Shown here piece after piece: positions 7,478 to 32,182 of a DNA stretch of 64,000 nt; the first letter of the stretch is position 1; every line of letters begins with the position of its first letter. Both the position numbers and the translations under genes were made by a program. The stretch lies in NCBI GenBank assembly GCA_913055735.1, contig CAJXKD010000001.1, forward strand, positions 1,520,281 to 1,584,280, given 5' to 3'. Source of the DNA: an uncultured Rhodospirillales bacterium (GTDB lineage: Bacteria; Pseudomonadota; Alphaproteobacteria; Rhodospirillales; UBA2165). Below the pieces are notes generated by a model. The model searched no databases and was not told where the DNA came from. It was given only the letters and a program-made list of their open reading frames with translations.

Positions 7478-7479
7478 GG

Positions 7480-8724: not shown

Positions 8725-8736
8725 CGGTGATCAGGA

Positions 8737-9195: not shown

Positions 9196-9260
9196 TCAGT
9201 TTCTCCACGTGTTCTTGTCGATTTCTGCACCGCTGAGAGTCAACAAATTCTTTACGCGGC

Positions 9261-9959: not shown

Positions 9960-9995
9960 GGAAACTCGGGAGATGCTGAAGATTGCTGGAAGGGA

Positions 9996-13794: not shown

Positions 13795-13900
13795 TGCGGT
13801 GCTATCTGGTTGAATTTTTGTGGCGGTCTTAAGTTGCTCGCCGCTCAGCTGAGGCAAGATAGGAAGCTGTAGATGGCGTAACCCCTAAAGGCAGATAGGT

Positions 13901-14824
13901 CTACTTCCAATACCCGGCGACGGGACCTGTGGTGCCGCGGATGAGCAGTCGAAACGCAGAGATATTGCCAAGTACGCGGTCCCAGCGCGGTTTGTCCAGG
14001 TGGCGCATCAGCGCTCCAAGATTGATGGCGAACGTGCCAAAAATTGCCCACGCGACGTGCGGTAAGGAGAATTGTTTCATCTTTCGCGCAAAATATACGC
14101 GATTGTATATCTGCTGCCGGCCGAAATCCCGTTGGCGAGCGTCCGAAATCGGCCGTGAATAGTGCATACAACGTGCCTCTCCGACAACGAACAGCCGGTA
14201 TTTACGTGAGACGCGATAACTATAATCGATGTCCTCCATGTAACCGTGACCTTCATACCATTCGTCGTAGAGGAACTCTTCGACGACCTTGCGTCGCCAG
14301 ATCGTTGCTCCGCCATATAACCATTCGGTTTCCGTCGTATTCTCGACATAGGGAATAGCTACGGGATGGGCGGACGGCAGCATGCGGCCGATCTGTTTTC
14401 CCGTGATGCCAAAAAACTGCAATAGGCGTGAGTGCTGAAGTTGCGGTTGATTGCGGATGCTCAGAGCCGCGCCGCCGGTATCCTCCGAAGCATTCCTCCA
14501 AAATTGCAGCATCCGCTCTGTTGCGTCCGCATCGAGTTCCAAATCGTCGTCGAGATATCCGGCCAAGTCGATTCCGTCGGCCAAAGCGGCCATACCCGCG
14601 TTACGTTGCTTCGACAAGGAGGGCGGAAAGCAGCGCACGTATGTAATCGGCAGTTTCGGAAACTCCTTGCATACGCTGGAGATGTCCGGGTTGCTGCCGT
14701 CAACGATGACGATTTGGTGCGGCATTTCGGTCTGTGCGGCGAGGCTTGCGAGAAGTACGCGTAAATCATCGGGCCGGTCTTTGGTGGGAACGACGTATGC
14801 AAGCCGATGCGGGGAATTGTTCAT
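13901..14824 (-). CDS. Glycosyltransferase family 2
   Basis: About 307 aa from the ATG at 14824 (the track ORF begins one codon earlier at a TTG). Motifs YVVPTKDRPDDL, IVIVDGS and YLDDDLEL (DxD). Confidence 0.7.
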   Translation of the reverse strand: MNNSPHRLAYVVPTKDRPDDLRVLLASLAAQTEMPHQIVIVDGSNPDISSVCKEFPKLPITYVRCFPPSLSKQRNAGMAALADGIDLAGYLDDDLELDADATERMLQFWRNASEDTGGAALSIRNQPQLQHSRLLQFFGITGKQIGRMLPSAHPVAIPYVENTTETEWLYGGATIWRRKVVEEFLYDEWYEGHGYMEDIDYSYRVSRKYRLFVVGEARCMHYSRPISDARQRDFGRQQIYNRVYFARKMKQFSLPHVAWAIFGTFAINLGALMRHLDKPRWDRVLGNISAFRLLIRGTTGPVAGYWK

Positions 14825-14890
14825 CAACGCTCGTGAATGATTGAGAATGGTGCGGTGGGGGGGGCGAAAGAGGTTCCCTACGTTGGCGCG

Positions 14891-15877
14891 TCAGGGAGCT
14901 TCAGATTTCCTACCAAGCGCTTTTAGCTTTCTTTTCAACAAAATGACTCCCGGTGGCGTAAGCAGGACGGCGAGATCATAAAACCGGCCTTTCAGATGCC
15001 GCCTGTTTTGTGGCTTCAGCAGTTGATACCAGTTCATTTTGAAATATGTACCGTGGCGGATATTCGCGTCCGTGTCGGAAGCGCGCATACCGGGATGGAC
15101 TTCAATCTCGTTCACCGAGTTCGGTTCCACCCAATAATAGGCAAAATAAAGAGAATGACGGGCTCGCTTCGCCATGTCGCTGATCGGTTCGACGCCGTGA
15201 AAAGCCGTGGGGTTGCACGCAAAAACGACGGCTCGGTTGAACAGGCAGGGAACGCGTTTGACGCTTTTCTTGCCGGTCCTATCAAACAGATGCAGCGCAC
15301 CGCCATCTTCATCTTTCCAATCCGGCGAAAGATAAAGAACGACATTCAAGACATGGGGAATTCCTAACGATTGGTGGTGGCTATGGTCGACGTGAGAGCC
15401 CAGGATGCCGCCCGGCGCTGTCATGTGGTAATAGCCATATTCGGTGTTGTAGTAAGGGTCGGGTATCAGTGACTTGAAGCCGGTAAGGGCCTCGAAATAC
15501 TTTAGTACATAAGGGGCAGCATATTTTGACGCCAACACCTGGAGGTACTCGGGAACCGAATCGCCAGTGCTAATGGTTTTCTTGTTCTGCGCGTCGTCCG
15601 TGAAGTGAACGTTGAAGGTGTGGACGTCGTGCACCAATGATCGAATGGCGGCATCCGCAATATCGGGCGCAAGGAAATCATCGATAATAAGATGAGGGAA
15701 CGGGTCCGCGTGTCGATAGGCCGTTCTCGTTTGTTCCAGAGGGGGGAAGTTGAACACGGTTTCCGGATCACGGAATACGAGCTCGTGGATTTCTCCCCGT
15801 GTAACGTCAGCGGGCTTGTCGGTGTTACTCAATTTACGTGCTTCCTGGCCGGATAGGATTTTCCATTGTTCCGGCAA
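14891..15877 (-). CDS. 2-oxoglutarate/Fe(II)-dependent oxygenase-like protein
   Basis: 328 aa with an apparent TTG start. HxD in GSHVDHSHH, a distal His in AFHGVEPI, and the GGALHLF strand. Confidence 0.55.
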   Translation of the reverse strand: MPEQWKILSGQEARKLSNTDKPADVTRGEIHELVFRDPETVFNFPPLEQTRTAYRHADPFPHLIIDDFLAPDIADAAIRSLVHDVHTFNVHFTDDAQNKKTISTGDSVPEYLQVLASKYAAPYVLKYFEALTGFKSLIPDPYYNTEYGYYHMTAPGGILGSHVDHSHHQSLGIPHVLNVVLYLSPDWKDEDGGALHLFDRTGKKSVKRVPCLFNRAVVFACNPTAFHGVEPISDMAKRARHSLYFAYYWVEPNSVNEIEVHPGMRASDTDANIRHGTYFKMNWYQLLKPQNRRHLKGRFYDLAVLLTPPGVILLKRKLKALGRKSEAP

Positions 15878-15924: not shown

Positions 15925-17754
15925 CTATACGGCCATCGTTGCAAGGATCTGGGTTCGGTCAATGGGAGACATATAATCTTGGAGCCGCTGAACGCGCCGC
16001 TTGATATCTACGCTGTTTAACGGTTGTTCAGCGAACCTGGCGACGGCATCGGCTATTTCGGATGGCGTACGGCAACGGACACGCAGGTCTTCCGGAACTT
16101 TGTCGAAATCGGCAGCGGTGTCCTGGGCAACGAAGAAAACCGGAAGGCCCGCACAGATGGCTTCGAAAGCGACACCCGTCGTGTTGTAGGCGACGGCGTC
16201 GGCACTCTCTAGCAAGCTCCAAGTATCGAGCTCGCTAAAGGAAACGTTGCCTGGATCGCTTGGGATGGCGCGCGTAATTTTCTCGCGGTCGTCATGCGAC
16301 ATGGACGGATGGAAATTGACCACGACGCGAAGCTCTATGGCGGGGAGAAGTTTAGTGCTCAGCCACACCTTACGCAGAAGCTCTCTCGACTCTTCAACTC
16401 CCACGCTCATCGGACAAAACAACGTAAACGTTTCCCGTTGGTTTGGTGCAGTTTCGCTTAGGTTTCGGTCCCCTATTTTGTCAAAGATGTTTTGGTACCT
16501 TACGGTTCCGCCAACCTGAACACGCGAAGCCGGATAGCCGTTTTCCAAAAACCATTGTCGATAGGCGCCACCCATAACCAGAAGCTGATCGGGTATACGT
16601 TCTTTCCTTATGTTCCGGTCGCTTACGAAATAGCGGATCGAATCCATCGATATGGCTGGGTGCAACACACCGACGCAATTAACATCTCGAAACTGGTTTG
16701 ACCTCAGCCCTTCGAGCAAAACGTTTTCCCAAGGCTGATTTTCATATGTGTAAACGATGTTGTGCGGCTTAAGGCCAAGAGGGACCAGGCGATGCATCAG
16801 ATACCGAAACTGGATCGCTTGGATAGGTCGCCAGGTAGACATCTCTCTGAACGCAGCGAGAGCGATGACGCCACTGACATCGATTCCTTGGAGCGAAACC
16901 TTTTTAATGAGGTTCCTGCAGAATCCGAAATATGTAAAACAGGATGTGAGAACTTCCGAGAAACGCCATGTTTCCTCAACGAAGATAACAGGCGCACCGG
17001 TTTCAAGGATCTTCTCCGCCGTCGTCGCAAATTCTTCAACCCAGCTACGCAGTTGGACCAGATATGCAACGCGGTGTCCGGCTTCGGCAAGGACATGTGG
17101 TAAAACGCCGAGCGCGGAATGAACCTCAGCCGGGGCGCTGCCACGAAACGTCTTAGAATCGGCCCAGACTATAAGCAGTGTATCCACCTGTTCGAGTTGC
17201 TGAGGCAGCGGATAACGTCGGCGAAGTTTCTTTAAAATACGCCGCCTCTTCAAAAAAGTTCTCAGTCCTGCGAGCCGTGCCCGTACTGCGCCCAGCAAGC
17301 AAGAAAACACAGTCGATAATGCCGGCGGAGAGCCTTGCAAAACCCTGGCGGTGTCGCTGTCATCGGTTACGACGATATCTGTTCGATCCTGAGTGTCGCT
17401 TTGGGCGATCGCGAGCCGGTATAGGAGATTGCGCTGCAGATCGTGAAGATATGGGTTCAACTCGCTCATGTCGCTCGCGGCCCAAGGGAAATAGGGCGCG
17501 TCCGCCGGCCAGATATACGAATCCAGGTTTCTCAGTAGGTGTCGGTGCTTCCGGAGGGCGGCGTTCATGACTTCATTCATGTCGCGGACAGCCAAGTTTT
17601 GACCGTTAAGCTCTTTGAACTTTAGCCAATCATCATAGGATGTTGCGCAGTACCAGAGAGAAGTAGGCTCGCCGCCGGCAATGTCCCGGACATCCTCTGG
17701 CATGATCGCGCTTAGCGGTTTAGCGATAGTTTGCACCGCAGCCCGTCTTTCCAC
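15925..17754 (-). CDS. Large hypothetical protein with GT-B-like C-terminal half (possible glycosyl- or glycerophospho-transferase)
   Basis: 609 aa (GTG at 17754; an alternative ATG lies at 17703). The C-terminal VVNFHPSM...SADAVAYNTTGVAFEAICAGLPVFFV resembles nucleotide-sugar-binding Rossmann halves. I do not recognise a specific family. Confidence 0.35.
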   Translation of the reverse strand: MERRAAVQTIAKPLSAIMPEDVRDIAGGEPTSLWYCATSYDDWLKFKELNGQNLAVRDMNEVMNAALRKHRHLLRNLDSYIWPADAPYFPWAASDMSELNPYLHDLQRNLLYRLAIAQSDTQDRTDIVVTDDSDTARVLQGSPPALSTVFSCLLGAVRARLAGLRTFLKRRRILKKLRRRYPLPQQLEQVDTLLIVWADSKTFRGSAPAEVHSALGVLPHVLAEAGHRVAYLVQLRSWVEEFATTAEKILETGAPVIFVEETWRFSEVLTSCFTYFGFCRNLIKKVSLQGIDVSGVIALAAFREMSTWRPIQAIQFRYLMHRLVPLGLKPHNIVYTYENQPWENVLLEGLRSNQFRDVNCVGVLHPAISMDSIRYFVSDRNIRKERIPDQLLVMGGAYRQWFLENGYPASRVQVGGTVRYQNIFDKIGDRNLSETAPNQRETFTLFCPMSVGVEESRELLRKVWLSTKLLPAIELRVVVNFHPSMSHDDREKITRAIPSDPGNVSFSELDTWSLLESADAVAYNTTGVAFEAICAGLPVFFVAQDTAADFDKVPEDLRVRCRTPSEIADAVARFAEQPLNSVDIKRRVQRLQDYMSPIDRTQILATMAV

Positions 17755-17769: not shown

Positions 17770-18900
17770 CTATATCAGAGTGCACGATTTGCACGGAGAC
17801 ACGGATTGGCGCCTGCCGTTTAGATGCTGTTCGCGCAATGCTTGATACTTCGGCCCGGTCCAAATCTCGCTGATGGATTCAAGCTCGGCGTTACCTACCG
17901 ACAAGTGCGAGCGATAGTCCACATCGCATGGATTAACGCGTCCGTCCCACCAGACAAATGTCCTACGCCATAGATCGGAGCACGGTGTTTCGATACCGTT
18001 CTTCGGATCGTCATAGGGGTTTTCCCAAGGGTTGTACTTGACGAACGCGACCTGGTCGACGAGGTCGTGCCAAAACGCCTCAATATCGGAAAAAACCTGC
18101 TCGTCAGCATATTTTACGCCGGAAACGCGCGTCACCGTTCGAGAGCTCGGATAGTCACGTTGTTTGATCTTGTTGAACATGCGGATATTGGCGAGCACCA
18201 CATCGAGTTTTCCGTTCACGCGTAGCGTGGCATAGAGATCCGGGTCTGCGGCATCGGCCGAAAACACCACCGTGTTGGGTTCAGCGGCGAGGATTGCATG
18301 TATTTTTTCCTCATTCATGAAGGATGCATTGGTATTGATTTTCAAACCGAGAAACTTGCCCGCGAGATATTCCAGCATTCCCACGATTTCTCTCGCCATC
18401 AAGGGTTCGCCGCGCGATGCAAGCGTCACCGCTTCGACCTCGTCCTCAATTTGATCGACAATATGCTTAAAGGTATCAAGCGTCATCATTCCCATGTGAC
18501 CATGTCGGCCCTGGGTGAGCATTTTGTCGGTCTGATAGCAGAAAACGCATCGGTAGTTGCAGATCGACGTCGGCTCAATCTGAACACACGGCGGGAATCC
18601 ATCCAGTTTCTGTTTGTTTGGATAAACGTCGTACCGATAGCGATAGTAGAGATACCTGAAAACCTCGTCATCCGTCCGCAAGCGCCGGATTTCCTCCGCG
18701 ACGAAGGGCGTAAGGTGAAACTCCGATTCCGGCCGTGGATTCAATATCTCATCAATTGCCGCTTTGATGATCGTGCCGCGGGTTCCGGGCACGGCGTCCG
18801 CCTTGTCGGAGATACGACGGATCCGTTCGTTGGCGGCATCCCCCGACTTGGCGCCCGCCAGTTCCGCGAAACTGTTTGCTTTTACGTATGTATCGCTCAT
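17770..18900 (-). CDS. Radical SAM enzyme with SPASM/twitch-type C-terminal Cys-rich domain
   Basis: 376 aa. IEPTSICNYRCVFCYQ (CxxxCxxC) plus the C-terminal CSDLW...DGRVNPCDVDY...SPCKSCT. Confidence 0.85.
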   Translation of the reverse strand: MSDTYVKANSFAELAGAKSGDAANERIRRISDKADAVPGTRGTIIKAAIDEILNPRPESEFHLTPFVAEEIRRLRTDDEVFRYLYYRYRYDVYPNKQKLDGFPPCVQIEPTSICNYRCVFCYQTDKMLTQGRHGHMGMMTLDTFKHIVDQIEDEVEAVTLASRGEPLMAREIVGMLEYLAGKFLGLKINTNASFMNEEKIHAILAAEPNTVVFSADAADPDLYATLRVNGKLDVVLANIRMFNKIKQRDYPSSRTVTRVSGVKYADEQVFSDIEAFWHDLVDQVAFVKYNPWENPYDDPKNGIETPCSDLWRRTFVWWDGRVNPCDVDYRSHLSVGNAELESISEIWTGPKYQALREQHLNGRRQSVSPCKSCTLI

Positions 18901-18974
18901 CTCTGGTTACTTTTTCGAGGCCAAGGCCGACACAGTTGAAATCGACCGCTTGACGGGTGGCGCTGTGGATTTTC

Positions 18975-19682
18975 TCATTCGCCGCCAGCTACGGCGATGA
19001 CTTGATTGGTGGTAAAGGCGTTCTTCTCCGAGCCGTACCAAAAGAGTGCTTCCGCGATTTCCTCGGGACGAGCGGCACGTTGCACGGGTATTTTCTCAAC
19101 TCGCTCAGCAAGGCTCCGTTCTGGAAGATGGGCATGAATCCTGGTATCCGTTACGCCGATCCGCAAGACGTTCACATACACACCACTTGCCGCCCAAGCC
19201 CTGCAACTGCCGGGGATGAATTCCTGCATATGCTTAGACAGCGAATAGCAATAGCTTTGGCTGCCACCGCCATATTTCACGCCGATACTCGACGCATGGA
19301 CGAAACGGCCAAAGCCTCTGCGCAGCATGGCAGGCGCCAGGGCCTGCATCAATATGATGCCCGGAAGGGCATTGACCGAAATGGCTCTCAAAATATCTGC
19401 CGCTTTGGCATCTTCGAATTTTAATGGCTTGAGTTCCGCGGCGAGATTGACGAATGAGTCGATATTTTGAAGTTGCTCGGGTTGCCGTTCGATCACCTTC
19501 TCCAATTCGGAGATATCGGAGAAGTCACACTTCCAGTCCATAAACGACCGAGACACGAACGCATCAAATTCGGGACGTCTCGTTCGATAGTGGCCGACGA
19601 CTTCCCAGCCTTCATCGAGATAGCGGCGGCAAAGCGCGAGACCGATATCCGAGCTTGCCCCGGCAATCAGAACTCGTGGCAT
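18975..19682 (-). CDS. Short-chain dehydrogenase/reductase (classical SDR)
   Basis: 235 aa. Motifs IAGASSDIGLAL and YSLSK (YxxxK). Confidence 0.7.
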   Translation of the reverse strand: MPRVLIAGASSDIGLALCRRYLDEGWEVVGHYRTRRPEFDAFVSRSFMDWKCDFSDISELEKVIERQPEQLQNIDSFVNLAAELKPLKFEDAKAADILRAISVNALPGIILMQALAPAMLRRGFGRFVHASSIGVKYGGGSQSYCYSLSKHMQEFIPGSCRAWAASGVYVNVLRIGVTDTRIHAHLPERSLAERVEKIPVQRAARPEEIAEALFWYGSEKNAFTTNQVIAVAGGE

Positions 19683-19709
19683 TGTTCAATCAAGACCGGT
19701 TTCACGAAT

Positions 19710-20477
19710 TCACCCATCATTCGTCTCGCCAAAGGTCCGCACCCAGTACTCCGCCTGAGGCATCTGCCATTCGTAGTCAACGTCCAGCCCGCCGGTTTGG
19801 CGCAGGGGATAGATTTTTTGGCCCATCCATTTTTGAGGCAACATGCCGTCTTCCAGGTGCTCGAGGTTATTCGGCCGTACGATGGATACGCCCATATCGG
19901 CGAACCATGCATCGCCTTGTGAATCGCGATCGCAATTCAACGTTTTTGGGTCACCAAAAGTTTCGAAGGGGACAAATGGTTCGAGAAGTCCCTCGGTATT
20001 TATTCGCCGTGCCCGCAACGGACTCCACATATTGTAACAGGAAACGGTAACGGCCGAATCGTATTCGGGATTCTCGTCCAGGACGCTTACCCCTTCTTCG
20101 ATACTGGCGATCGAGACCGTCGGCGAATTGGCCATCAGGAGAATCAGTAGATTTACGGTTTCTCCCGATTTTTCTGCTTTCTCACGGATAACCGACCATG
20201 CATGAACATAGGCATCTTCGCCGAGAGCTTCTTTCGTACACAAATAGTCCGGCCGATCGATAATCTCGGCGCCGAAATCACGGCCGATCGATTTGATCCG
20301 CTCGGAATCCGTCGAGACGAATATGCGGTCGACACTCGGTGCCTTTCTTGCCACTTCGAGCGGGTATTCAAGCATTGGTCGCCCATTTATAGGGGCGATA
20401 TTTTTCCCCGGATATCCAGTTGATCCCTCCCGTCCGATCAGGATGGCGACTACCAGACCGTTGTTTTCTTTAGGCAT
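19710..20477 (-). CDS. Cytidylyltransferase of the CMP-NeuAc synthetase (acylneuraminate cytidylyltransferase) family
   Basis: 255 aa. The N-terminal VAILIGREGSTGYPGKNIAPINGRPMLEY is the P-loop-like motif of this family. It is the second such gene in the window. Confidence 0.6.
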   Translation of the reverse strand: MPKENNGLVVAILIGREGSTGYPGKNIAPINGRPMLEYPLEVARKAPSVDRIFVSTDSERIKSIGRDFGAEIIDRPDYLCTKEALGEDAYVHAWSVIREKAEKSGETVNLLILLMANSPTVSIASIEEGVSVLDENPEYDSAVTVSCYNMWSPLRARRINTEGLLEPFVPFETFGDPKTLNCDRDSQGDAWFADMGVSIVRPNNLEHLEDGMLPQKWMGQKIYPLRQTGGLDVDYEWQMPQAEYWVRTFGETNDG

Positions 20478-20486
20478 CTGTTCCTC

Positions 20487-21356
20487 TCATCTGCGGCAAT
20501 GCCAGTTGAAATATCGATTGTGCGCTGGTCGCACGTTCATTTCCGCTGGAACTCTTTTCTCAACAGCGAAACCCACGGACTGGATCAGGTCTTGCACACG
20601 GGCAATTCCCTCGGGATCGCATTCATCGAGTTCGACAACGATTGAACGCAAACGAGAATCCATGAGAGTTTGTCGCGCCCCGTTAAAAATTTTTTCTTCG
20701 ATTCCGTCGACATCGATTTTGAGGTGAGTGGGGAATGGTAAGTCTTTCCGTCCTGCCAACCCGTCCAAGGTCATGCCGATTATACCTTGCCGATATTTTG
20801 AAGTGTTTCGGTCTGCTGCCTGCGCCATGACAAACTGCGCATGTGCCCCGCCTGGTTCTGCCGACGTCTGTTCGAGCACACCTAAGCCGTCCTCATCGGA
20901 GAGGGCAAGGCAATAAGCGTCGATCAGCGATGAAAATTCGTTGAGGGCTATATGCGACGTAAGTAGGCTAAAATTCGCTGCTCCCGGTTCGAATGCGACG
21001 ACCCTTATCCCGTGCCGCGCGGCGTAAAGGCTGTACAGCCCGATATTCGCCCCGATATCCCACATTACGTCATCCGAGCCGAATTCATCGATCCATGCCA
21101 GGGTCTCTGGCTCCTTCTCGTGAAAACTATCGATGCGATAGCGGACAATTGGCGACAGCCCATAGAACTTTAAAACCCCGGCGCTGGTGGCGACTTCGAC
21201 GATTTCGTGGATACGGGCGCCGAAGGCCTCCTCGATCACGGGTATCAATTTCCGCCGAACGGTTTTGGGAAGAACGGAAAAAGGCGCGCGAAATACCTGC
21301 ACCATCATCCTGCGGGCTAGGGCTCTGAGGCCTGTTCGAAACTGCATCGTCGTCAT
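20487..21356 (-). CDS. FkbM-family methyltransferase
   Basis: 289 aa. Motif MWDIGANIGLYSLYAARHG. Confidence 0.75.
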   Translation of the reverse strand: MTTMQFRTGLRALARRMMVQVFRAPFSVLPKTVRRKLIPVIEEAFGARIHEIVEVATSAGVLKFYGLSPIVRYRIDSFHEKEPETLAWIDEFGSDDVMWDIGANIGLYSLYAARHGIRVVAFEPGAANFSLLTSHIALNEFSSLIDAYCLALSDEDGLGVLEQTSAEPGGAHAQFVMAQAADRNTSKYRQGIIGMTLDGLAGRKDLPFPTHLKIDVDGIEEKIFNGARQTLMDSRLRSIVVELDECDPEGIARVQDLIQSVGFAVEKRVPAEMNVRPAHNRYFNWHCRR

Positions 21357-21399
21357 CTCGTTTGAGCGTGCCCTCAGACTCTATGTTTTTCGGATACCA

Positions 21400-22746
21400 T
21401 TAGGCGGCCGTTGCGAGTTGGTCAGTTAGATTGAATACGTCGATCAAGACGCCGCCTGCCGTGAAGTTTTCCCCCGCGGCTCTTCCTAAAAATGTCACGT
21501 TCGAAAATCTGTTGGCTTCCGTAGTGACAAGATCACGGGTGTTCCGTGTCAACCGCGTGGTTGGCAAGGGAAACCCATTCGCGAGATTCTCACCACGCTG
21601 ATACAAAAAGCGTGCATCGGGATCGACGACGCCGATCCTGACCATCTCCGACTTAACCAGTTCCAAGTCTTTCCCCACGTCACGCATCGACGGGGAGATG
21701 ACTTCCGCTGTGAGGTGGAAGACATCTTTTTCGTTTCGTTGCACGTTTGAATACAAGGTAATTCGGAATGTCAAAAAGCTAGGATCATGACACTGGATCA
21801 AATAGGCCGTCGTCAGAGGCGGACGATCAAACGCGAAATGGAAAAGACTTGTATATAGACGTTCGTGAGGGGCGGGCGATGCGCTTCTTTTGGTTCCTCG
21901 ACAGGCTTTGACAAAGAAGGGGATGGGAACCGTCCACAAAAGATGCGTCGTTTGAAGGGTTTTCCCGTTAGAAAGCGTGACGGCATTCACTCTGTTATTC
22001 GTAAATACAATCTCATCGATACTCGCCCCGGTAACTACTTTAACGTTTAACTTCTCTAAGCGGTCCTTCAACAAGTCGATCCATCGGCTGATTCCGCCGT
22101 GGGCCGGATAGAAGTTCCTTAAATCCGACGCCCCCTCCTTGGAGGAGTGAAACGCGAGCTTTCTGTCGTAGATCTCGAGCTTCTTTAGTTCTCGCGAAGC
22201 CTCTGGAGTTAATCCCCGGAGGCGCCCCAAGCCGAGAAGGCCGTGCGAACCGGGGGCAAGTTCATCGAGAGCACATCCATAATATTTGCCGCAAACGATC
22301 GGCTGGAATAGACGCTCGGTGAGCGTGTCACCAAAGTTCGCGCGCAACTCCTGTTCCAGGTTTTCCGGCTCTGCGTAGGGCGATGTACAGTTGAGCAGTT
22401 CGACCATGCCCTTTTCGTAAATGTCGTCGTCCAACTGTCGCATGTCGAGGAAGGGACTTTCTGCATCGAGCACACCCCCGTAAAAAGATCCCGCCTCCAG
22501 ATTCTCCAGTACGCGCCATTCAGGTTCCTGTATTCCATCGAAAAGTATTTCATCGAGGCGCTGAACGCCGGTGGATCGAAGAAAATGTGATCCGCAATCG
22601 AACGAAACGCCCAGCTCGCACGTTGTCGATTTGTAAAGCCCGCCGATTTCCGCCTCACGTTCGACGAGGCACACCTCGACTTTGTTTTCCGCAAGCAGGA
22701 TCGCGGCGACGATCCCAGCTATGCCGCCTCCAGCAACAACAATCAA
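21400..22746 (-). CDS. FAD/NAD(P)-binding oxidoreductase (amine-oxidase / UDP-galactopyranose-mutase-like fold)
   Basis: 448 aa with an apparent TTG start. The N-terminal IVVAGGGIAGIVAAILLAE...VEREAEIGG is a dinucleotide-binding beta-alpha-beta motif. Confidence 0.6.
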   Translation of the reverse strand: MIVVAGGGIAGIVAAILLAENKVEVCLVEREAEIGGLYKSTTCELGVSFDCGSHFLRSTGVQRLDEILFDGIQEPEWRVLENLEAGSFYGGVLDAESPFLDMRQLDDDIYEKGMVELLNCTSPYAEPENLEQELRANFGDTLTERLFQPIVCGKYYGCALDELAPGSHGLLGLGRLRGLTPEASRELKKLEIYDRKLAFHSSKEGASDLRNFYPAHGGISRWIDLLKDRLEKLNVKVVTGASIDEIVFTNNRVNAVTLSNGKTLQTTHLLWTVPIPFFVKACRGTKRSASPAPHERLYTSLFHFAFDRPPLTTAYLIQCHDPSFLTFRITLYSNVQRNEKDVFHLTAEVISPSMRDVGKDLELVKSEMVRIGVVDPDARFLYQRGENLANGFPLPTTRLTRNTRDLVTTEANRFSNVTFLGRAAGENFTAGGVLIDVFNLTDQLATAA

Positions 22747-22832
22747 AGGTCTTTAATCCTTCCGGAAATTGGGGTTTGAGTGACGACCAATGGGTCCATC
22801 TTGGCTAAGCGACCGTTGGTAATTGACTTCGT

Positions 22833-23540
22833 TCATGGCTTTTCGGCGACGATATGCCACTCACCGACAATCTCGGGGACGCTGAGTTTGAGGTTCTCGA
22901 TCGTATGATGCTTGAGTTCCAAAATCGTCCAATCTCGGAAGAGCACGGATCCGATCTCGGCCCGCGAATAGAACTTGATCTGGCCGACGCCGGCAAGGGG
23001 CCCCGTTATATCAATCGTCACTCCATCGGGGCCGTTCCGTCCTCCGCGCGTGGTGGTGTCGCTATAGATCTCGTTGTAGAATTTTCCGGTTGGTTTCAAG
23101 ACGCGGAAAACTTCATCGACAGCCCGTTTGGCAGCAGTTCCTCCCGTCTGCGAGATCGCGGCCCGGTTGATCGCGAAATCGAAGAAATTATCGGTAAACG
23201 GGAGATCCGTGAAATCACCGGTAATAAAGGTTCCTTCCAGATTTTCGGCATCAAAACGATTCTTGGCGAACTCGATGGCGCTGCTGCTTGCATCGATACC
23301 GAAGACTTCATGGCCCTCGCGTGCCGCAAACCAAAGATTGTTTGCGGCGCCGCATCCGATTTCCAGGATGCGTAATCTATCGGCGTGCCCTACTTGCGTT
23401 CGGTATCTGAATACGAAGGAAACCACGCCGGAATAAGGGTATAGATTTAGCTGCTTGCCATCGGCGTAGATATTCTCCCATATTGGGTCAAATGTTGTGG
23501 CAAGTGGCATGCCATCGTTGCCAGGCTCATTGTTGGGCAA
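22833..23540 (-). CDS. Class I SAM-dependent methyltransferase
   Basis: 235 aa (TTG at 23540; an alternative ATG lies at 23510). Motif I LRILEIGCGAANN. Confidence 0.75.
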   Translation of the reverse strand: MPNNEPGNDGMPLATTFDPIWENIYADGKQLNLYPYSGVVSFVFRYRTQVGHADRLRILEIGCGAANNLWFAAREGHEVFGIDASSSAIEFAKNRFDAENLEGTFITGDFTDLPFTDNFFDFAINRAAISQTGGTAAKRAVDEVFRVLKPTGKFYNEIYSDTTTRGGRNGPDGVTIDITGPLAGVGQIKFYSRAEIGSVLFRDWTILELKHHTIENLKLSVPEIVGEWHIVAEKP

Positions 23541-23606
23541 TTTCAGTTCTCCAGATAGAAATATTAGAAGTGACCGCCGGTTTTGGCGCCGTCGGAAAAT
23601 CAGACA
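23541..23606. promoter_or_regulatory. Divergent intergenic spacer between the 23540-leftward operon and the plus-strand FemAB-like gene
   Basis: Positional inference only. An AT-rich stretch (agatagaaatattagaag) lies between divergent starts. Confidence 0.3.
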
Positions 23607-24629
23607 ATGAATGATGACCCGTCAAAGTTTTACGCCCCGGGAATAATGGATTTATCGAGTTACAGCCTTGAGCGTGGATCGCCTGGGTCGGATTGGGACA
23701 GTTTTGTTGAGGTCTCGCCACAAGGAACGATCTTTGCTCTTGGTGCATCCCTGCAATCTGCCCGTGGGACCCAGAGCATTTGGTATTGCAAAAAAAACGA
23801 AGAGATAAAAGCAGGCATTGCTCTCTTGGAAAGCGAGGATGGGCATTCCTGTTTGCACGACGGGTTGATCGTCTACACCGGCATCTTGTTTGCGCCCCAC
23901 GAGAGCAATCAATCGCCCGCACAGATCAATTCTGAAAATTTTCGGATTACCTCGTCGATCATAAACAAATTAACAGACATGTACCGGACGGTAGAATTCT
24001 CACTTCATCCGTCGTTCGAAGATATGAGACCATTCCTGTGGCACAATTTCTCGAATTCCGGTCCGAAGTTTTCGTATACGCTTCGCTATACCAGCCTTCT
24101 CACTCTGGATAGCGCATTTGGGAAAGAAGAAATCGACGGTAATCCCGTTTATCTCCGCTGTAACAAGTCAAGACGACAGGAGATAAGGAAGTTTCTGGCG
24201 TCCGATATCGAGGTGGTCGAGGGGTTTTCGGAACCCGACTTTCTCTCTCTCTATCGGAAAACCTTCGACAGTCAGAACCTACAAGTCTCCGACCGGCAAC
24301 TGGACTCGATTTCTTGCTTGGTCCGAAATCTGGCGGCGGCGGACCGGTTGAAAATGTTTACGGCCTATGTCGGCGACGGCGCGCCGGCGAGTGTCGCGCT
24401 TATCGGACTGGATAGTAAAAGGGCATACTATTTGTTCGGTGCAAACGATCCCGAACACAAAACCAGTCCCGCTGGAACGGGAGTGTTATGGGAAGCATTT
24501 GCGCGCCTTTCCATGGCCGGTATCAGAGAAGTGGATTTGGAAGGAATCAACAGCCCGGCTAGAGGATATTTCAAGCTTAGTTTCGGTGGTTCGATCACGC
24601 CGTACTATATCGTGAAAATAGATCAATGA
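23607..24629 (+). CDS. FemAB/BioF2-like GNAT-fold acyl- or aminoacyl-transferase
   Basis: 340 aa from the ATG at 23607 (the track ORF starts at a TTG at 23583). The C-terminal ...KRAYYLFGANDPEHKTSPAGTGVLWEAF...FKLSFGG resembles the FemAB/Acetyltransf_6 type. Confidence 0.55.
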   Translation: MNDDPSKFYAPGIMDLSSYSLERGSPGSDWDSFVEVSPQGTIFALGASLQSARGTQSIWYCKKNEEIKAGIALLESEDGHSCLHDGLIVYTGILFAPHESNQSPAQINSENFRITSSIINKLTDMYRTVEFSLHPSFEDMRPFLWHNFSNSGPKFSYTLRYTSLLTLDSAFGKEEIDGNPVYLRCNKSRRQEIRKFLASDIEVVEGFSEPDFLSLYRKTFDSQNLQVSDRQLDSISCLVRNLAAADRLKMFTAYVGDGAPASVALIGLDSKRAYYLFGANDPEHKTSPAGTGVLWEAFARLSMAGIREVDLEGINSPARGYFKLSFGGSITPYYIVKIDQ

Positions 24630-24662: not shown

Positions 24663-25586
24663 CTACCTGATTCCTTTCACGGGTTTTGCCGACGCCGTAT
24701 CTGCATTTTCCACGCACTCCCCGGCTTGATCTAATTCTTCCGTACATTGAAGCAACCCAAGCCCGAGGTCCATGTAGCTATCGCGGATTAACCGTCGGCC
24801 GGTTCGCGGCGCATAGCTGTATGGAGTTTGTTGATAGTGCCCAACCTTCTTCCCCTCATTGAAACGCAGTTCGATGTCGGGGCCGAGCATCTCCTTGATC
24901 ATGCTTAGCATATCCCGCGTTCGCATCCGTTCGTGTCCCATCAGGTGATAAATCCCGTTTTCATATGCGGGACTAAGTATATCGCAAGAGGTCTCGGCGG
25001 CATCGTGAACATGGATATACTCGCGCACCTCGTTGCCGGTCCCCTGATAGGAAATCACGCCGTCCCTGAGGGCTTCCTGCAGCATACGCCTCACCGCGTT
25101 ATCCGATCCGGCACGCGGCCCATAAAGCGAGCCAAACCGCAAGATCGTATATGGAAGGTCGAAGACCTCCTGATAATCCTGGGTCAACTGCTCGCAAGCC
25201 TGTTTGGTGCTGCGATAGAACATGCCTTGATTGCTATAGACGTATACCGAACTGGCGAGAACAAATCTGCGGACGGCGTTAGCACGTGCCGCTTCCAGAA
25301 CTTGCGTTGTTCCCACTATATTGACTTTGACGGTCTCTAGCGGGTTGTCGCTGGCCATCGCGATGTCGGCGATCCCGGCAAAATGGAAGACGCTTTCGCA
25401 TCCTTGAATTGCCTTCTCGACGATTTCGGTGTCGAGTATATCGCCGACGATCATGGTCTGTTCGGGACGCAGGTACGGCGAATGTTCCCGATCCAAAATC
25501 ACGACATCGTACCCGCGCGCGCTCAGTGCGTCCGAAACGTGGCTGCCGAGGAATCCGGATCCACCTGTAACCAATACCTTATGCAT
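24663..25586 (-). CDS. NAD-dependent sugar epimerase/dehydratase (extended SDR)
   Basis: MHKVLVTGGSGFLGSHV from the ATG at 25586 (the track ORF begins at a TTG at 25610), plus YRSTK (YxxxK). Confidence 0.75.
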   Translation of the reverse strand: MHKVLVTGGSGFLGSHVSDALSARGYDVVILDREHSPYLRPEQTMIVGDILDTEIVEKAIQGCESVFHFAGIADIAMASDNPLETVKVNIVGTTQVLEAARANAVRRFVLASSVYVYSNQGMFYRSTKQACEQLTQDYQEVFDLPYTILRFGSLYGPRAGSDNAVRRMLQEALRDGVISYQGTGNEVREYIHVHDAAETSCDILSPAYENGIYHLMGHERMRTRDMLSMIKEMLGPDIELRFNEGKKVGHYQQTPYSYAPRTGRRLIRDSYMDLGLGLLQCTEELDQAGECVENADTASAKPVKGIR

Positions 25587-25606
25587 TTTCTCTGATCGTT
25601 TCGTAT

Positions 25607-25738
25607 TCAATATGTGTATGCCCTGTAAGAAGTTTTCCGATCGGAAAGCAGGCCTCTGATCGTTTTGATTGCCGTCGAATCGACGACAACACCATCAAAA
25701 TCGAGAGCGAGCGCGTTTATTCCGGTATTGCCTTGCAA
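25607..25738 (-). pseudogene. Relic of a HAD-hydrolase gene (N-terminal about 20 codons only)
   Basis: The translation INALALDFDGVVVDSTAIKT (about 25664-25720) parallels the start of the intact HAD gene at 13117-13794 (VLALDFDGVIVDSNDIKT). Similarity then stops and the frame ends at 25607. It lies in the only sizeable non-coding gap inside the long operon. Confidence 0.45.
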
Positions 25739-28886: not shown

Positions 28887-29135
28887 TTAGGATAGCTTGT
28901 CCAGCAACAGGTCGGCGATCAGCCCGGCACTCAGCATTTCGATTTGTTCCTCGGGCGTCAGCACGATGGAGAATTCTTCCTCAATAGCCATGACAACGTT
29001 CAGGTGGCGGATACTGTCCCAAGAGTCTGTTGTATCCGGTGACGTTTCGCGCGTGATCGCTTCGGTTGGGATGTCCAGCACATCCGACAATATCGCGGCC
29101 ACCTGATCGAATACCTCTTTTTCGGTCGGTTTCAT
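28887..29135 (-). CDS. Acyl carrier protein
   Basis: 82 aa, acidic, with a four-helix-type length. DSWDSIRHL is a phosphopantetheine-attachment-type serine motif. ATGA overlap with the FkbH-like gene. Confidence 0.75.
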   Translation of the reverse strand: MKPTEKEVFDQVAAILSDVLDIPTEAITRETSPDTTDSWDSIRHLNVVMAIEEEFSIVLTPEEQIEMLSAGLIADLLLDKLS

Positions 29136-32181: not shown

Positions 32182-32182
32182 G

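What the first reader, a model, noticed from the sequence alone, without database searches (positions are those of the whole stretch)
17770..23540. Second activation module: radical SAM/SPASM + SDR + CMP-NeuAc-synthetase-like cytidylyltransferase + FkbM MTase + flavoprotein + MTase, with no cognate synthase
Seen: six consecutive minus-strand genes.
- A radical SAM enzyme with CNYRCVFCYQ and a C-terminal Cys-rich SPASM/twitch-like region.
- A classical SDR.
- A second acylneuraminate-cytidylyltransferase-family protein (GREGSTGYPGKNIAPINGRPMLEY).
- An FkbM methyltransferase.
- A GGGIAG flavoprotein.
- Another class I methyltransferase.

There is no second NeuB/KdsA-type condensing enzyme nearby.

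Established: SPASM radical SAM enzymes usually act on peptides or cofactors, although sugar-modifying radical SAM enzymes exist (dehydratases, epimerases, C-C bond formers).

Inference: this module may produce a separate CMP/CDP-activated, radically rearranged and methylated sugar or sugar acid. Alternatively it may further tailor the nonulosonic acid made at 32-42 kb. Either option is poorly precedented.
Basis: partly seen in the sequence, partly recalled or inferred. Interest (0 to 1): 0.65.

Follow-up and report, generated by a model that had tools for sequence, protein, structure and literature searches.

The report
Conserved radical-SAM CMP-sugar cassette
The six genes are real, but the functional unit is a cassette conserved across many bacterial phyla and never characterised: a BtrN-like radical SAM enzyme, a distinct cytidylyltransferase, an epimerase-like enzyme, a reductase, a methyltransferase and a glycosyltransferase that probably make and attach a second CMP-activated acidic sugar without a NeuB-type synthase.

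Summary
Observation confirmed. All six minus-strand ORFs exist with the stated domains, and no second NeuB/KdsA-type gene lies in the 64 kb.

Three corrections:
1. The rSAM C-terminus is a twitch (one auxiliary cluster), not a full SPASM. Exactly four Cys (CX12GX4C…CX2C) are 100% conserved in 66 orthologues. Three of them align residue-for-residue with BtrN, the best PDB sequence match (E=1e-14).
2. The module boundaries are wrong. Across 80 related loci from more than 10 phyla, the rSAM (R) travels with the cytidylyltransferase (C; 36/38 full loci, 58% identity) and with an NAD epimerase-like gene at 24663-25610, outside the finding (33/38). A GT-B-like ~600-aa protein is also common (15925-17754; 30/38). 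The flavoprotein and class I methyltransferase are never co-conserved (0/80).
3. R is followed by either an SDR or a HisC-like aminotransferase, almost never both (Fisher p=1e-6). Fusions of C, FkbM or a glycosyltransferase domain to an R-type rSAM exist.

Sister cassettes add a 2-hydroxyacid dehydrogenase, a HAD phosphatase and sometimes 6-phosphogluconolactonase.

Best reading (confidence about 0.5): a separate CMP-activated acidic sugar, in which R makes a ketone that the SDR reduces.

Main rival (about 0.25): ElaABC-style tailoring of the neighbouring pseudaminic acid.

No literature on the cassette was found.

The parts
17770..18900 (-). R: radical SAM enzyme with an N-terminal all-helical ~100-aa domain and a C-terminal twitch-type (single auxiliary cluster) domain
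   Evidence: Pfam Radical_SAM plus SPASM. No NCBIfam model reaches its cutoff. C114/C118/C121 and C307/G320/C325/C370/C373 are 100% conserved in 66 orthologues, and there are no other conserved Cys. The best PDB match by profile is BtrN at E=1.3e-14, with C325, C370 and C373 aligned to BtrN Cys. AF2 model pLDDT is 81. Foldseek finds SuiB, BtrN (TM 0.69 normalised to BtrN), DesII, MoaA, anSME and AprD4.
18975..19682 (-). S: classical SDR, proposed reductase of the ketone made by R
   Evidence: adh_short/adh_short_C2. An orthologue-level SDR is present in 22/38 full loci. It is nearly mutually exclusive with a HisC-like aminotransferase (Fisher p=9.6e-7). It lies directly next to R in 14 loci.
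19710..20477 (-). C: CTP_transf_3 cytidylyltransferase of a distinct, highly conserved orthologous group
   Evidence: PF02348 at 62 bits. PseF scores 66 bits (cutoff 205.7) and KdsB 28 bits (cutoff 155). It shares 24% identity with the window's PseF-like gene. It is present in 36/38 full loci at a median 58% identity and is adjacent to R in 41/80 loci. The GR-GS-P-KN and DxD motifs are conserved, together with a family-specific C-terminal half. A C-R fusion protein exists (P0219).
20487..21356 (-). K: FkbM-family methyltransferase, a frequent cassette member
   Evidence: TIGR01444 at 82 bits against a cutoff of 37.7. Found in 15/38 full loci. P0259 is an FkbM fusion to a full-length R.
21400..22746 (-). 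FAD/NAD(P)-binding oxidoreductase, a locus-specific accessory of unknown role
   Evidence: NAD_binding_8 and Amino_oxidase. The weak best PDB match is UDP-galactopyranose mutase at 1.8e-5. It has homologues in 0 of 80 related loci.
22833..23540 (-). Class I SAM methyltransferase, a locus-specific accessory
   Evidence: Methyltransf_25/11. It has homologues in 0 of 80 related loci.
24663..25610 (-). E: extended-SDR NAD epimerase/reductase-like enzyme, a conserved core partner lying outside the finding's coordinates
   Evidence: Epimerase PF01370 at 146 bits. The best PDB relatives are GalE-type 4-epimerases. It carries the 'ASS…YRSTK' motif and no dehydratase D/E pair (read from the sequence). 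An orthologue is present in 33/38 full loci at a median 49% identity.
15925..17754 (-). T: ~600-aa GT-B-like putative glycosyltransferase, a divergent relative of TIGR04326. Its start codon lies 15 bp downstream of R's stop codon
   Evidence: TIGR04326 at 66 bits, below the cutoff of 250. T-like proteins (T, TIGR04326 or TIGR04331) occur in 30/38 full loci. Profile against PDB gives CalG4 at 1.8e-4 and KpsC at about 0.01. A low-confidence AF2 model (pLDDT 59) matches GT-B folds.
13117..13857 (-). HAD-IA phosphatase, a possible cassette member
   Evidence: Weakly phosphoglycolate-phosphatase-like. It shares 36-40% identity with the HAD cluster found in 17/38 full loci.
13901..15877 (-). GT2 glycosyltransferase (13901-14827) and 2OG-Fe(II) oxygenase (14891-15877): co-directional, locus-specific
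   Evidence: Pfam. Homologues in 0 of 80 related loci.
23583..24629 (+). FemAB-like GNAT (Acetyltransf_6), divergently oriented between the module and E; locus-specific
   Evidence: PF13480 at 48 bits. Homologues in 0 of 80 related loci.

Best explanation
The finding contains the local copy of a widespread, uncharacterised glycan cassette. Its conserved core is E (24663-25610), C (19710-20477) and R (17770-18900). These are accompanied by either an SDR (here 18975-19682) or a HisC-like aminotransferase, often by FkbM (20487-21356), and by a GT-B-like transferase T (15925-17754).

I propose that the cassette makes and installs a second CMP-activated acidic sugar, distinct from the pseudaminic acid made at 32-42 kb. 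The proposed steps are:
- C couples the sugar acid to CMP.
- R, a BtrN-like twitch rSAM, abstracts a carbinol hydrogen through the 5'-deoxyadenosyl radical. It converts a CHOH to a ketone, either by oxidation or by diol dehydration. Its single auxiliary [4Fe-4S] cluster acts as electron acceptor.
- The SDR reduces that ketone, giving net epimerisation or deoxygenation. Sister cassettes transaminate it instead.
- FkbM methylates the product.
- T transfers it to the glycan.

In other genomes the cassette also carries a D-2-hydroxyacid dehydrogenase, a HAD phosphatase and sometimes 6-phosphogluconolactonase. This suggests that the 2-keto-acid backbone comes from oxidising a phosphorylated aldonic acid such as 6-phosphogluconate, rather than from a NeuB/KdsA aldol condensation.

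Shown: gene content, conservation, linkage, fusions, twitch architecture, catalytic motifs. Inferred: substrate identity, order of steps, type of radical chemistry. The flavoprotein and the class I methyltransferase are local additions of unknown role.
For: 1. Linkage. In 38 loci with at least 6 kb on both sides of R, the counts are: C 36, E 33, a T-like protein 30, 2-hydroxyacid DH 25, SDR 22, AT 18, HAD 17, FkbM 15, NeuB only 11. C is directly adjacent to R in 41/80 loci. Genes are co-directional.

2. Breadth. 144 species-genomes from Alphaproteobacteria, SAR11, Actinomycetota, Omnitrophota, Nitrospinota, Planctomycetota, Chlorobium, cyanobacteria, Leptospirales and others carry R at 48-68% identity. 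There are 881 50%-identity clusters at E<=1e-30.

3. Rosetta-stone fusions to R-type rSAM domains: CTP_transf_3 (P0219), FkbM (P0259), a hexapeptide acyltransferase (P0264) and a glycosyltransferase-like domain (P0137).

4. The SDR and the aminotransferase are mutually exclusive next to R (15 AT-only, 19 SDR-only, 3 both, 1 neither; p=9.6e-7). The two types interleave on the R tree. This implies one R chemistry that yields a ketone.

5. BtrN is the best PDB sequence relative, with aligned auxiliary-cluster Cys. BtrN performs a 2-electron alcohol-to-ketone oxidation and has a 4-Cys auxiliary cluster (PMC9012708). In butirosin biosynthesis its ketone product is then transaminated (my knowledge).

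6. C keeps the CTP-binding and DxD motifs. It fails the PseF and KdsB cutoffs and shares only 24% identity with the local PseF-like gene.

7. In sister cassettes a Pgl passes its equivalog cutoff (155 bits against 124) and sits directly upstream of the 2-hydroxyacid DH. An IolO-like keto-sugar-acid epimerase TIM barrel accompanies the SDR-type cassettes.

8. T has a GT-B fold.

9. A C6 2-ulosonic acid exists in a bacterial capsule: E. coli K3 (Dengler 1988, as cited in PMC10433991).
Against: - No biochemical datum exists for any member.
- The window itself lacks the 2-hydroxyacid DH and Pgl, so the backbone source here is unexplained.
- NeuB lies within 10 kb in 11/38 loci. PseG-PseH genes sit beside the cassette in several phyla. 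The window's own NeuB is 17 kb away and would have been missed by my flanks, so independence from nonulosonic acid pathways is not proven.
- The 2-hydroxyacid DH scores best against SerA-type PGDH. That fits a side-chain or acyl-donor role as well as a backbone role.
- By structure alone R is as close to the peptide maturase SuiB as to BtrN.
- The E. coli K3 link could not be tested.
Confidence: 0.5

Rival explanations
1. Nonulosonic-acid tailoring. The cassette modifies the pseudaminic acid made next door, or its CMP form, by ElaABC-like logic. C makes the CMP-linked or modified nonulosonic acid. R oxidises or dehydrates a side-chain carbinol to a ketone. The SDR reduces it to an epimer or deoxy form, or the aminotransferase aminates it. 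FkbM methylates.
For: - ElaABC is a CTP-transferase plus an oxidising and a reducing NAD(P) enzyme that epimerises CMP-Leg at C8 through an 8-keto intermediate (PMC13656337).
- NeuB lies within 10 kb in 11/38 loci. PseG-PseH fusions and NeuB sit beside the cassette in Phormidium, Leptospirales, Solibacteraceae and Magnetovibrio loci, and a Pse pathway lies 12-24 kb away in the window.
- The ±10 kb flanks undercount nonulosonic acid genes.
Against: - 20/38 full loci show neither NeuB nor a PseF-like gene nearby.
- The window already has a near-threshold PseF (178 bits), so a second transferase is unnecessary for Pse itself.
- C is far more conserved across phyla (58%) than PseF-type genes (about 27%). 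This suggests one fixed substrate.
- The reading gives no role to the recurrent 2-hydroxyacid DH, HAD and Pgl genes.
Confidence: 0.25
2. R is itself the missing 'synthase'. It forms a C-C bond by radical addition, joining a 2-keto-acid unit supplied by the 2-hydroxyacid DH to a sugar prepared by E. This would build a higher ulosonic acid without an aldolase. The product is then dephosphorylated (HAD), CMP-activated (C) and trimmed (SDR or aminotransferase).
For: - There is no NeuB/KdsA in most cassettes.
- E (an extended SDR) is tightly linked to R, as TunA and TunB are in tunicamycin biosynthesis (my knowledge).
- rSAM C-C-forming enzymes acting on sugars are known.
- R has a conserved, unexplained N-terminal domain.
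Against: - The closest sequence relative, BtrN, is a dehydrogenase.
- The SDR/aminotransferase alternation directly beside R is explained more simply by a ketone product.
- E lacks a dehydratase-type acid/base pair (read from the sequence).
- The reading rests entirely on analogy.
Confidence: 0.08
3. R is a peptide or cofactor maturase (RiPP-type SPASM enzyme) that merely sits among glycan genes.
For: - Pfam SPASM hit.
- The top Foldseek hits include SuiB, CteB, SkfB and anSME.
- The best NCBIfam partial hits are maturases, all far below their cutoffs.
Against: - There is only one auxiliary cluster.
- The N-terminal domain is all-helical in the model, not an RRE-type winged helix.
- The immediate neighbours in 80 loci are C, an aminotransferase, an SDR or T.
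- The fusions are to cytidylyltransferase, FkbM, acyltransferase and glycosyltransferase domains.
- The PDB profile search ranks BtrN eleven orders of magnitude above anSME.
Confidence: 0.02
4. A chance juxtaposition: C is a redundant PseF/NeuA paralogue, and the six genes are unrelated tailoring enzymes of a large O-antigen or capsule locus.
For: - The locus is very large and mosaic.
- Two of the six genes really are locus-specific.
Against: - The E-C-R(-SDR/AT) linkage is conserved across more than 10 phyla, with fusions.
- C shares 24% identity with the local PseF-like gene and fails the PseF cutoff.
Confidence: 0.03

Closest known systems
BtrN (2-deoxy-scyllo-inosamine dehydrogenase, butirosin pathway; twitch-domain radical SAM)
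   Same: - Best PDB sequence match (E=1.3e-14).
- Same CX3CX2C core plus a four-Cys single auxiliary cluster, with the pattern CX12GX4C…CX2C at the extreme C-terminus.
- Carbohydrate-type substrate context.
- Its ketone product is passed to an aminotransferase, as in the aminotransferase-type sister cassettes. The reaction is described in PMC9012708; the downstream aminotransferase step is my knowledge.
   Different: - Only about 17% identity in the structural alignment.
- R has a ~100-aa helical N-terminal domain and a longer core.
- R sits in surface-glycan loci with a cytidylyltransferase, not in aminoglycoside clusters.
- Its substrate is unknown.
AprD4/AprD3 (rSAM 1,2-diol dehydratase plus NADPH reductase; C3'-deoxygenation of paromamine)
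   Same: An rSAM followed by a dedicated reductase acting on the keto product of a sugar. This matches the R-SDR pairing seen here. AprD4 appears among the Foldseek hits (6fd2, E=2e-4).
   Different: - A much weaker relative than BtrN.
- AprD4 belongs to a different rSAM subgroup: the NF033070 model was not among R's hits.
- Its substrate is a pseudodisaccharide, not an activated sugar acid.
ElaABC cassette (CMP-Leg5,7Ac2 C8 epimerisation in Acinetobacter KL49 and Vibrio vulnificus)
   Same: A CTP_transf_3 enzyme together with an oxidising and a reducing enzyme that work through a keto intermediate on a CMP-linked ulosonic acid. It is a discrete, horizontally mobile module inside a glycan locus (PMC13656337).
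   Different: - The oxidant there is an NAD(P) enzyme, not an rSAM.
- ElaABC always accompanies a Leg pathway, whereas this cassette mostly lacks a nearby NeuB.
- This cassette carries 2-hydroxyacid DH, HAD and Pgl partners that ElaABC lacks.
Kdo pathway (KdsA-KdsC-KdsB)
   Same: The logic of phosphorylated 2-keto sugar acid, then HAD phosphatase, then CTP_transf_3 activation, then a GT-B-type transferase. KdsB is among C's PDB relatives. KpsC and WaaA are among T's weak profile hits.
   Different: - There is no KdsA-type aldolase.
- The 2-keto group would come from a 2-hydroxyacid dehydrogenase.
- An rSAM step is added.
- C fails the KdsB model cutoffs.
spiro-SPASM protein family (TIGR04321) and N_Twi_rSAM (NF033640)
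   Same: R matches the rSAM/SPASM half of TIGR04321 (65 bits) and NF033640 (62 bits). P0213, a spiro-SPASM-like relative, was found with the R profile.
   Different: Both scores are far below the cutoffs (250 and 170). R is not a member of either named family.

Membership tests
SPASM-domain radical SAM (two auxiliary clusters) | Seven-Cys motif CX9-15GX4C - gap - CX2CX5CX3C - gap - C, binding AuxI and AuxII | tested here: not met
   Only C307, C325, C370 and C373 are conserved after residue 250 in 66 orthologues. The protein ends 3 residues after C373. The Pfam SPASM model still hits (55 bits) because twitch is a truncated SPASM (PMC9012708).
Twitch-domain radical SAM (BtrN/MoaA type) | CX3CX2C SAM cluster plus a truncated SPASM with ligands for one auxiliary cluster | tested here: met
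   C114/C118/C121 and the CX12GX4C…CX2C pattern are 100% conserved. C325, C370 and C373 align to BtrN Cys in the HMMER alignment. C307 matches only by spacing, relying on my recollection of BtrN C169.
BtrN orthologue (DOIA dehydrogenase) | Close sequence identity and an aminoglycoside (2-deoxystreptamine) gene context | tested here: not met
   About 17% identity in the structural alignment. The extra N-terminal domain and the glycan-locus context differ.
RiPP-maturing rSAM/SPASM | RRE-type peptide-recognition domain and an adjacent precursor peptide gene | tested here: not met
   The N-terminal domain is modelled as five helices with no beta-sheet. The neighbours are sugar enzymes in 80 loci. 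A systematic search for small ORFs was not done.
PseF (TIGR03584) pseudaminic acid cytidylyltransferase | Score above the curated equivalog cutoff of 205.7 bits | tested here: not met
   C scores 66 bits over residues 10-170 only. The window's other gene, 32752-33483, scores 178 bits full-length. The two share 24% identity.
KdsB (CMP-Kdo synthetase) | Score above the TIGR00466 / PRK05450 cutoffs | tested here: not met
   Best scores are 53 bits against a cutoff of 234 and 28 bits against 155.
CTP_transf_3 superfamily (active cytidylyltransferase) | Pfam PF02348 above the gathering score; N-terminal Arg/Lys CTP-binding loop; C-terminal Mg-binding DxD | tested here: met
   62 bits against a cutoff of 22.6. 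The 'GR-GS…P-KN' motif and D231-x-D233 are conserved in at least 90% of 55 orthologues. The DxD role follows ElaB D211/D213 (PMC13656337). Activity itself is not testable here.
FkbM methyltransferase family | TIGR01444 above a cutoff of 37.7 | tested here: met
   82 bits.
TIGR04326 surface carbohydrate biosynthesis protein | Score above 250 bits | tested here: not met
   Window T scores 66 bits on its C-terminal half. True members (for example L059:13121-15022, 486 bits) occupy the same cassette position. T is a divergent relative.
ElaABC-type CMP-nonulosonate epimerisation module | CTP-transferase plus NAD(P) oxidase plus NAD(P) reductase, embedded in a Leg/Pse pathway and acting on CMP-nonulosonic acid | tested here: inconclusive
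   The CTP-transferase and the SDR are present, but the oxidant would be an rSAM. NeuB lies nearby in only 11/38 loci, and the flanks are short. The substrate is not testable here.

The most novel reading that the evidence does not exclude
The E-C-R cassette encodes a NeuB/KdsA-independent route to a new class of CMP-activated 2-ulosonic acid. A phosphorylated aldonic acid (most plausibly 6-phosphogluconate) is oxidised at C2 by the 2-hydroxyacid dehydrogenase. It is then dephosphorylated and CMP-activated. A BtrN-like radical SAM enzyme remodels it (deoxygenation, epimerisation or amination). The result is a six-carbon 'mini-Kdo', like the 4-deoxy-2-hexulosonic acid of E. coli K3. The sugar would be displayed on cell surfaces across more than 10 phyla, including SAR11, acI Actinobacteria, Nitrospinota and cyanobacteria.
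Probability: 0.3. Interest if true: 0.8.

Novelty: new variant of a known kind. Interest (0 to 1): 0.6.

Why it matters
If the reading is right, this is an unrecognised nucleotide-sugar pathway present in at least 144 species-level genomes. These include some of the most abundant aquatic bacteria: SAR11, Nanopelagicales and Nitrospinota. It would add a radical SAM step to CMP-sugar biosynthesis, and it would give 2-ulosonic acids a second biosynthetic origin besides PEP-aldolase condensation.

It also supplies a clean comparative handle, because the SDR and aminotransferase variants predict hydroxy and amino versions of the same sugar. It gives functions to test for two orphan 'Leptospira O-antigen' families, TIGR04326 and TIGR04331.

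For annotation practice, it shows that 'SPASM' hits in glycan loci should not be read as peptide maturases.

Tried and rejected
- **Literature.** Eight full-text searches combined radical SAM, SPASM or twitch with cytidylyltransferase, nonulosonic, polysaccharide, flagellin glycosylation, hexulosonic acid, and the TIGR04326/TIGR04331/LIC names. None described this cassette. A cyanophage paper that mentions both an rSAM and cytidylyltransferases was irrelevant.
- **E. coli K3 test.** A DNA-level search of 5,426 E. coli genomes with a low-GC E-C-R region found nothing.
- **Plasmids.** Only 23-27% identity paralogues were found, in Brachyspira, Lawsonia and Azospirillum.
- **Viral contigs.** None.
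- **T family.** Two word-indexed homologue searches returned only 2-3 proteins. The AF2 model of T is therefore poor (pLDDT 59) and supports only 'GT-B fold'.
- **Cys geometry.** Model coordinates are not exposed, so Cys-Cys distances could not be measured.
- **Regulatory signals.** Promoter and terminator scans showed nothing above shuffled expectation.
- **Source organism.** It could not be named.
- **C105.** Rejected as an extra cluster ligand. It is invariant in the 24-sequence alignment but is Cys in only 31/66 orthologues.
- **Cassette B12-rSAM.** Rejected as the orthologue of the window's 49464-51353 gene, since identity is only 21-25%.

Full report

Yes. ORF listing shows six consecutive minus-strand ORFs at 17770-18900, 18975-19682, 19710-20477, 20487-21356, 21400-22746 and 22833-23540, separated by 9-86 bp. 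Pfam and NCBIfam confirm every domain call:

| ORF | Call |
|---|---|
| 17770-18900 | Radical_SAM + SPASM |
| 18975-19682 | classical SDR |
| 19710-20477 | CTP_transf_3 |
| 20487-21356 | FkbM (TIGR01444, 82 bits; cutoff 37.7) |
| 21400-22746 | NAD_binding_8 / Amino_oxidase flavoprotein |
| 22833-23540 | class I methyltransferase |

The window is one very large surface-glycan locus. It contains an initiating WecA/WbpL-type transferase, several GT1/GT2 enzymes, an ABC exporter, a sulfotransferase, a carbamoyltransferase and many sugar-nucleotide enzymes. It also holds a pseudaminic-acid set: PseB 41282-42277, PseC 40077-41333, a PseG-like gene 36793-37833, NeuB/PseI 35780-36796 and a PseF-like gene 32752-33483. 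No second NeuB/KdsA-type gene was found in any scanned ORF.

**2. The radical SAM protein (R)**

No NCBIfam model reaches its cutoff. A 24-sequence alignment (A1) and a 66-orthologue alignment show that C114/C118/C121 are 100% conserved. After residue 250, exactly four Cys are 100% conserved: C307 and C325 (with G320, forming CX12GX4C), and C370 and C373 (CX2C). The protein ends three residues later.

This is the truncated, one-cluster 'twitch' version of SPASM, as defined in PMC9012708. It is not the seven-Cys, two-cluster domain.

- A profile search of all PDB sequences puts BtrN first (E=1.3e-14), far ahead of anSME (2e-3). It aligns R's G-x4-C325 and C370-x2-C373 onto BtrN's corresponding Cys.
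- The AF2 model (pLDDT 81) matches SuiB, BtrN (TM 0.69 normalised to BtrN), CteB, DesII, SkfB, MoaA, anSME, BlsE, viperin and AprD4. Fold alone does not separate sugar from peptide enzymes. Sequence does.
- The N-terminal ~100 residues are modelled as five helices, not an RRE.

The finder's own refutation criterion was that the cysteines would not model as an auxiliary Fe-S domain. That criterion is not triggered, although 'SPASM' should read 'twitch'.

**3. Gene neighbourhood**

R is a large, tightly conserved family. There are 2,809 homologues at E<=1e-10 and 881 50%-identity clusters at E<=1e-30. 144 species-genomes carry it at 48-68% identity. They span Alphaproteobacteria, SAR11, Nanopelagicales, Bacteroidota, Omnitrophota, Elusimicrobiota, Nitrospinota, Planctomycetota, Chlorobium, a cyanobacterium and Leptospirales.

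I ran tblastn of the window proteins against 80 fetched loci:

| Window gene | Loci with a homologue (of 80) | Median identity |
|---|---|---|
| C (19710-20477) | 69 | 58% |
| E (24663-25610, outside the finding) | 58 | 49% |
| SDR | 33 | 31% |
| FkbM | 20 | 36% |
| T (15925-17754) | 18 | 25% |
| Flavoprotein, class I MTase, FemAB-like GNAT, 2OG oxygenase, GT2 | 0 each | n/a |

Clustering all neighbouring ORFs and scanning representatives revealed recurrent partners that the window lacks:
- a D-2-hydroxyacid dehydrogenase;
- a HisC-like class I/II aminotransferase;
- a B12-rSAM;
- a 6-phosphogluconolactonase that passes its equivalog cutoff (155 bits against 124) and sits directly upstream of the dehydrogenase;
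- an IolO-like keto-sugar-acid epimerase TIM barrel;
- bona fide TIGR04326 and TIGR04331 ~600-aa proteins.

A HAD-IA phosphatase also recurs. The window has a 36-40% identical copy at 13117-13857.

In the 38 loci with at least 6 kb on both sides of R, the counts are: C 36, E 33, any T-like protein 30, 2-hydroxyacid DH 25, SDR 22, B12-rSAM 21, AT 18, HAD 17, FkbM 15, NeuB 11, Pgl 6. A typical order is Pgl-2HADH-E-HAD-C-R-(AT or SDR)-…-T.

**4. Evidence that these genes work together, and on sugars**

- C is immediately adjacent to R in 41/80 loci. The next most frequent immediate neighbours are the aminotransferase (19) and the SDR (14).
- Longer relatives found with the R profile are fusions: CTP_transf_3 + rSAM + SPASM (P0219), FkbM + full-length R (P0259), a hexapeptide acyltransferase + rSAM (P0264), and a glycosyltransferase-like domain + R (P0137).
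- The SDR and the aminotransferase are almost mutually exclusive: 19 SDR-only, 15 AT-only, 3 both, 1 neither (Fisher p=9.6e-7). The two types interleave throughout an NJ tree of R. R therefore does the same thing in both, and the downstream enzyme decides the outcome.

The simplest chemistry that fits is a ketone made by R. BtrN does exactly this: a two-electron alcohol-to-ketone oxidation with a four-Cys auxiliary cluster proposed as the electron acceptor (PMC9012708). In the butirosin pathway its product is then transaminated (my knowledge). AprD4/AprD3 is the dehydratase-plus-reductase variant of the same logic (my knowledge; AprD4 is among the Foldseek hits). In SDR-type cassettes the IolO-like epimerase often sits between R and the SDR. 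This recalls the keto, then alpha-epimerisation, then reduction sequence of deoxysugar pathways.

**5. The cytidylyltransferase (C)**

It is not a redundant PseF.
- It shares 24% identity with the window's PseF-like gene.
- It scores 66 bits on the PseF model (cutoff 205.7), against 178 bits full-length for 32752-33483.
- It fails the KdsB models.
- Its nearest solved relatives, NeuA and then KdsB, match only the N-terminal CTP-binding half.

Across 55 orthologues the 'GR-GS…P-KN' loop and a C-terminal D-x-D are conserved. The DxD corresponds to the Mg-binding D211/D213 described for ElaB (PMC13656337). A family-specific C-terminal half is also conserved. C therefore looks like an active enzyme with its own fixed substrate.

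**6. E and T**

E is a GalE-like extended SDR. It carries 'ASS…YRSTK' and no dehydratase acid/base pair, so it is an epimerase or reductase rather than a 4,6-dehydratase. This last step is an inference from the motif.

T starts 15 bp after R's stop codon. It is a weak TIGR04326 relative (66 bits). Profile-against-PDB hits are to GT-B glycosyltransferases: CalG4 at 1.8e-4 and KpsC beta-Kdo transferase at about 0.01. A low-confidence AF2 model (pLDDT 59) maps onto GT-B folds. The donor type is unresolved.

**7. What it most likely does**

Best-supported reading (about 0.5): a self-contained pathway for a second CMP-activated acidic sugar. C activates it. R makes a keto intermediate, and here the SDR reduces that intermediate. 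FkbM methylates and T transfers.

The absence of a cognate synthase is explained in sister cassettes by Pgl, the 2-hydroxyacid DH and HAD. These would supply a 2-keto sugar acid from a phosphorylated aldonic acid, followed by dephosphorylation. This parallels KdsC then KdsB in the Kdo pathway. A six-carbon 2-ulosonic acid does occur in a bacterial capsule: the 4-deoxy-2-hexulosonic acid of E. coli K3 (Dengler 1988, cited in PMC10433991). I could not test whether the K3 locus holds this cassette.

Weak point: this window lacks the dehydrogenase and Pgl. Here the precursor must come from elsewhere in the genome, or from the locus-specific flavoprotein (weakly UGM-like).

**8. Main rival**

Main rival (about 0.25): ElaABC-style tailoring of the neighbouring nonulosonic acid (PMC13656337).

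- For it: NeuB lies within 10 kb in 11/38 loci. PseG-PseH fusions plus NeuB sit beside the cassette in Phormidium, Leptospirales, Solibacteraceae and Magnetovibrio. My ±10 kb flanks would have missed the window's own NeuB, which is 17 kb away.
- Against it: 20/38 full loci show neither NeuB nor a PseF-like gene. C is far better conserved than PseF-type genes. The reading gives no role to the 2HADH, HAD and Pgl genes.

Lesser rivals:
- R as a C-C-forming 'synthase': 0.08, resting on analogy only.
- Peptide maturase: 0.02.
- Chance juxtaposition: 0.03.

**9. Novelty and verdict**

I found no description of this cassette in eight full-text searches. No curated NCBIfam model covers R or C. Only the associated ~600-aa proteins have (function-less) TIGRFAM families.

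The parts are all known kinds: a twitch rSAM, a CTP_transf_3 enzyme, SDRs and a GT-B protein. The keto-intermediate logic has precedents. I therefore rate it a new variant of a known kind, not categorically new.

It is of above-average interest because of its breadth, including the most abundant marine and freshwater clades. It is also immediately testable, since the SDR and aminotransferase variants predict hydroxy and amino versions of one sugar. Interest 0.6.

Its interpretation is partly supported. The module boundaries and the 'SPASM' and 'poorly precedented' statements need correction.

Noticed in passing
window 29132-31003, 31000-32274, 27512-28858, 25798-27690: Four genes lie between the cassette and the Pse genes: a bona fide FkbH-domain protein (TIGR01686, 299 bits against a cutoff of 147), a MaoC-dehydratase/SDR fusion, a DUF4910/DUF2172/HTH_47 aminopeptidase-like protein and a PFTS-motif polysaccharide protein. 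From memory, the aminopeptidase-like protein is the same family as Campylobacter Cj1295, which is linked to di-O-methylglyceroyl-Pse. Together they suggest an acyl (glyceroyl-type) decoration of the pseudaminic acid.
   Followed up: partly
L051:1256-2203, L056:7219-8181, L061:5237-6199, L029:2941-4077: A second, shorter rSAM/SPASM-type protein (R', about 320 aa, 22-26% identity to R) sits next to PseG-PseH, NeuB and a TIGR04331 'LIC12162 family transferase'. This occurs in a cyanobacterium, two spirochaete lineages and an acidobacterium. It is a separate association of an rSAM with a nonulosonic acid pathway. It is absent from the window.
   Followed up: partly
window 49464-51353: A B12-binding radical SAM protein (629 aa) lies in the same glycan locus. 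It shares only 21-25% identity with the B12-rSAM that accompanies the cassette in 21/38 other loci, so it is probably not the orthologue.
   Followed up: partly
window 54098-55836: A split transketolase (N-terminal TPP-binding half 55012-55836; pyrimidine-binding and C-terminal halves 54098-55015) sits inside the glycan locus, next to a methyltransferase, an epimerase and a UDP-glucose/GDP-mannose dehydrogenase-like gene. This hints at two-carbon branch or chain extension of a sugar.
   Followed up: no
window 43181-49397: A fused ABC exporter (43181-45055), a sulfotransferase-like protein (45089-46252), an unassigned 491-aa protein and a NodU/CmcH-type carbamoyltransferase (47763-49397). The glycan is probably exported by an ABC-transporter route and is sulfated and/or carbamoylated.
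   Followed up: no
window 7480-8724 and 59665-61218: A TylC3-type sugar C-methyltransferase (Methyltransf_13/14) and an HldE-like bifunctional kinase/nucleotidyltransferase (PfkB plus CTP_transf_like). These are further unusual-sugar pathways in the same locus.
   Followed up: no
window 25798-27690 / 27512-28858: The longest-ORF calls of these two genes overlap by 179 bp. The JGI gene calls for the same DNA give 580 aa and 422 aa, so the upstream TTG/ATG starts listed by the ORF tool are probably too early.
   Followed up: partly
window 1-12000 versus 12000-64000: GC content is 0.55-0.62 in the first 12 kb and 0.51-0.56 through the rest of the glycan locus.
   Followed up: no
plasmid records NC_012226.1, NZ_CP046929.1, NC_008013.1: The ~33-36 kb Brachyspira hyodysenteriae plasmids and the Lawsonia intracellularis plasmid carry distant (23-27% identity) rSAM/SPASM paralogues of R lacking the N-terminal domain. 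Brachyspira WA1 has three places in one record.
   Followed up: no
L064:13179-13745, L040, L072 (SAR11 loci): In SAR11 versions of the cassette, a GmhA-like sedoheptulose-7-phosphate isomerase-type SIS protein (83-88 bits, below cutoff) and unassigned ~400-440-aa proteins follow R-SDR or R-AT. The E gene there shares only 31-40% identity with the window's E. The SAR11 variant may use a different precursor.
   Followed up: no
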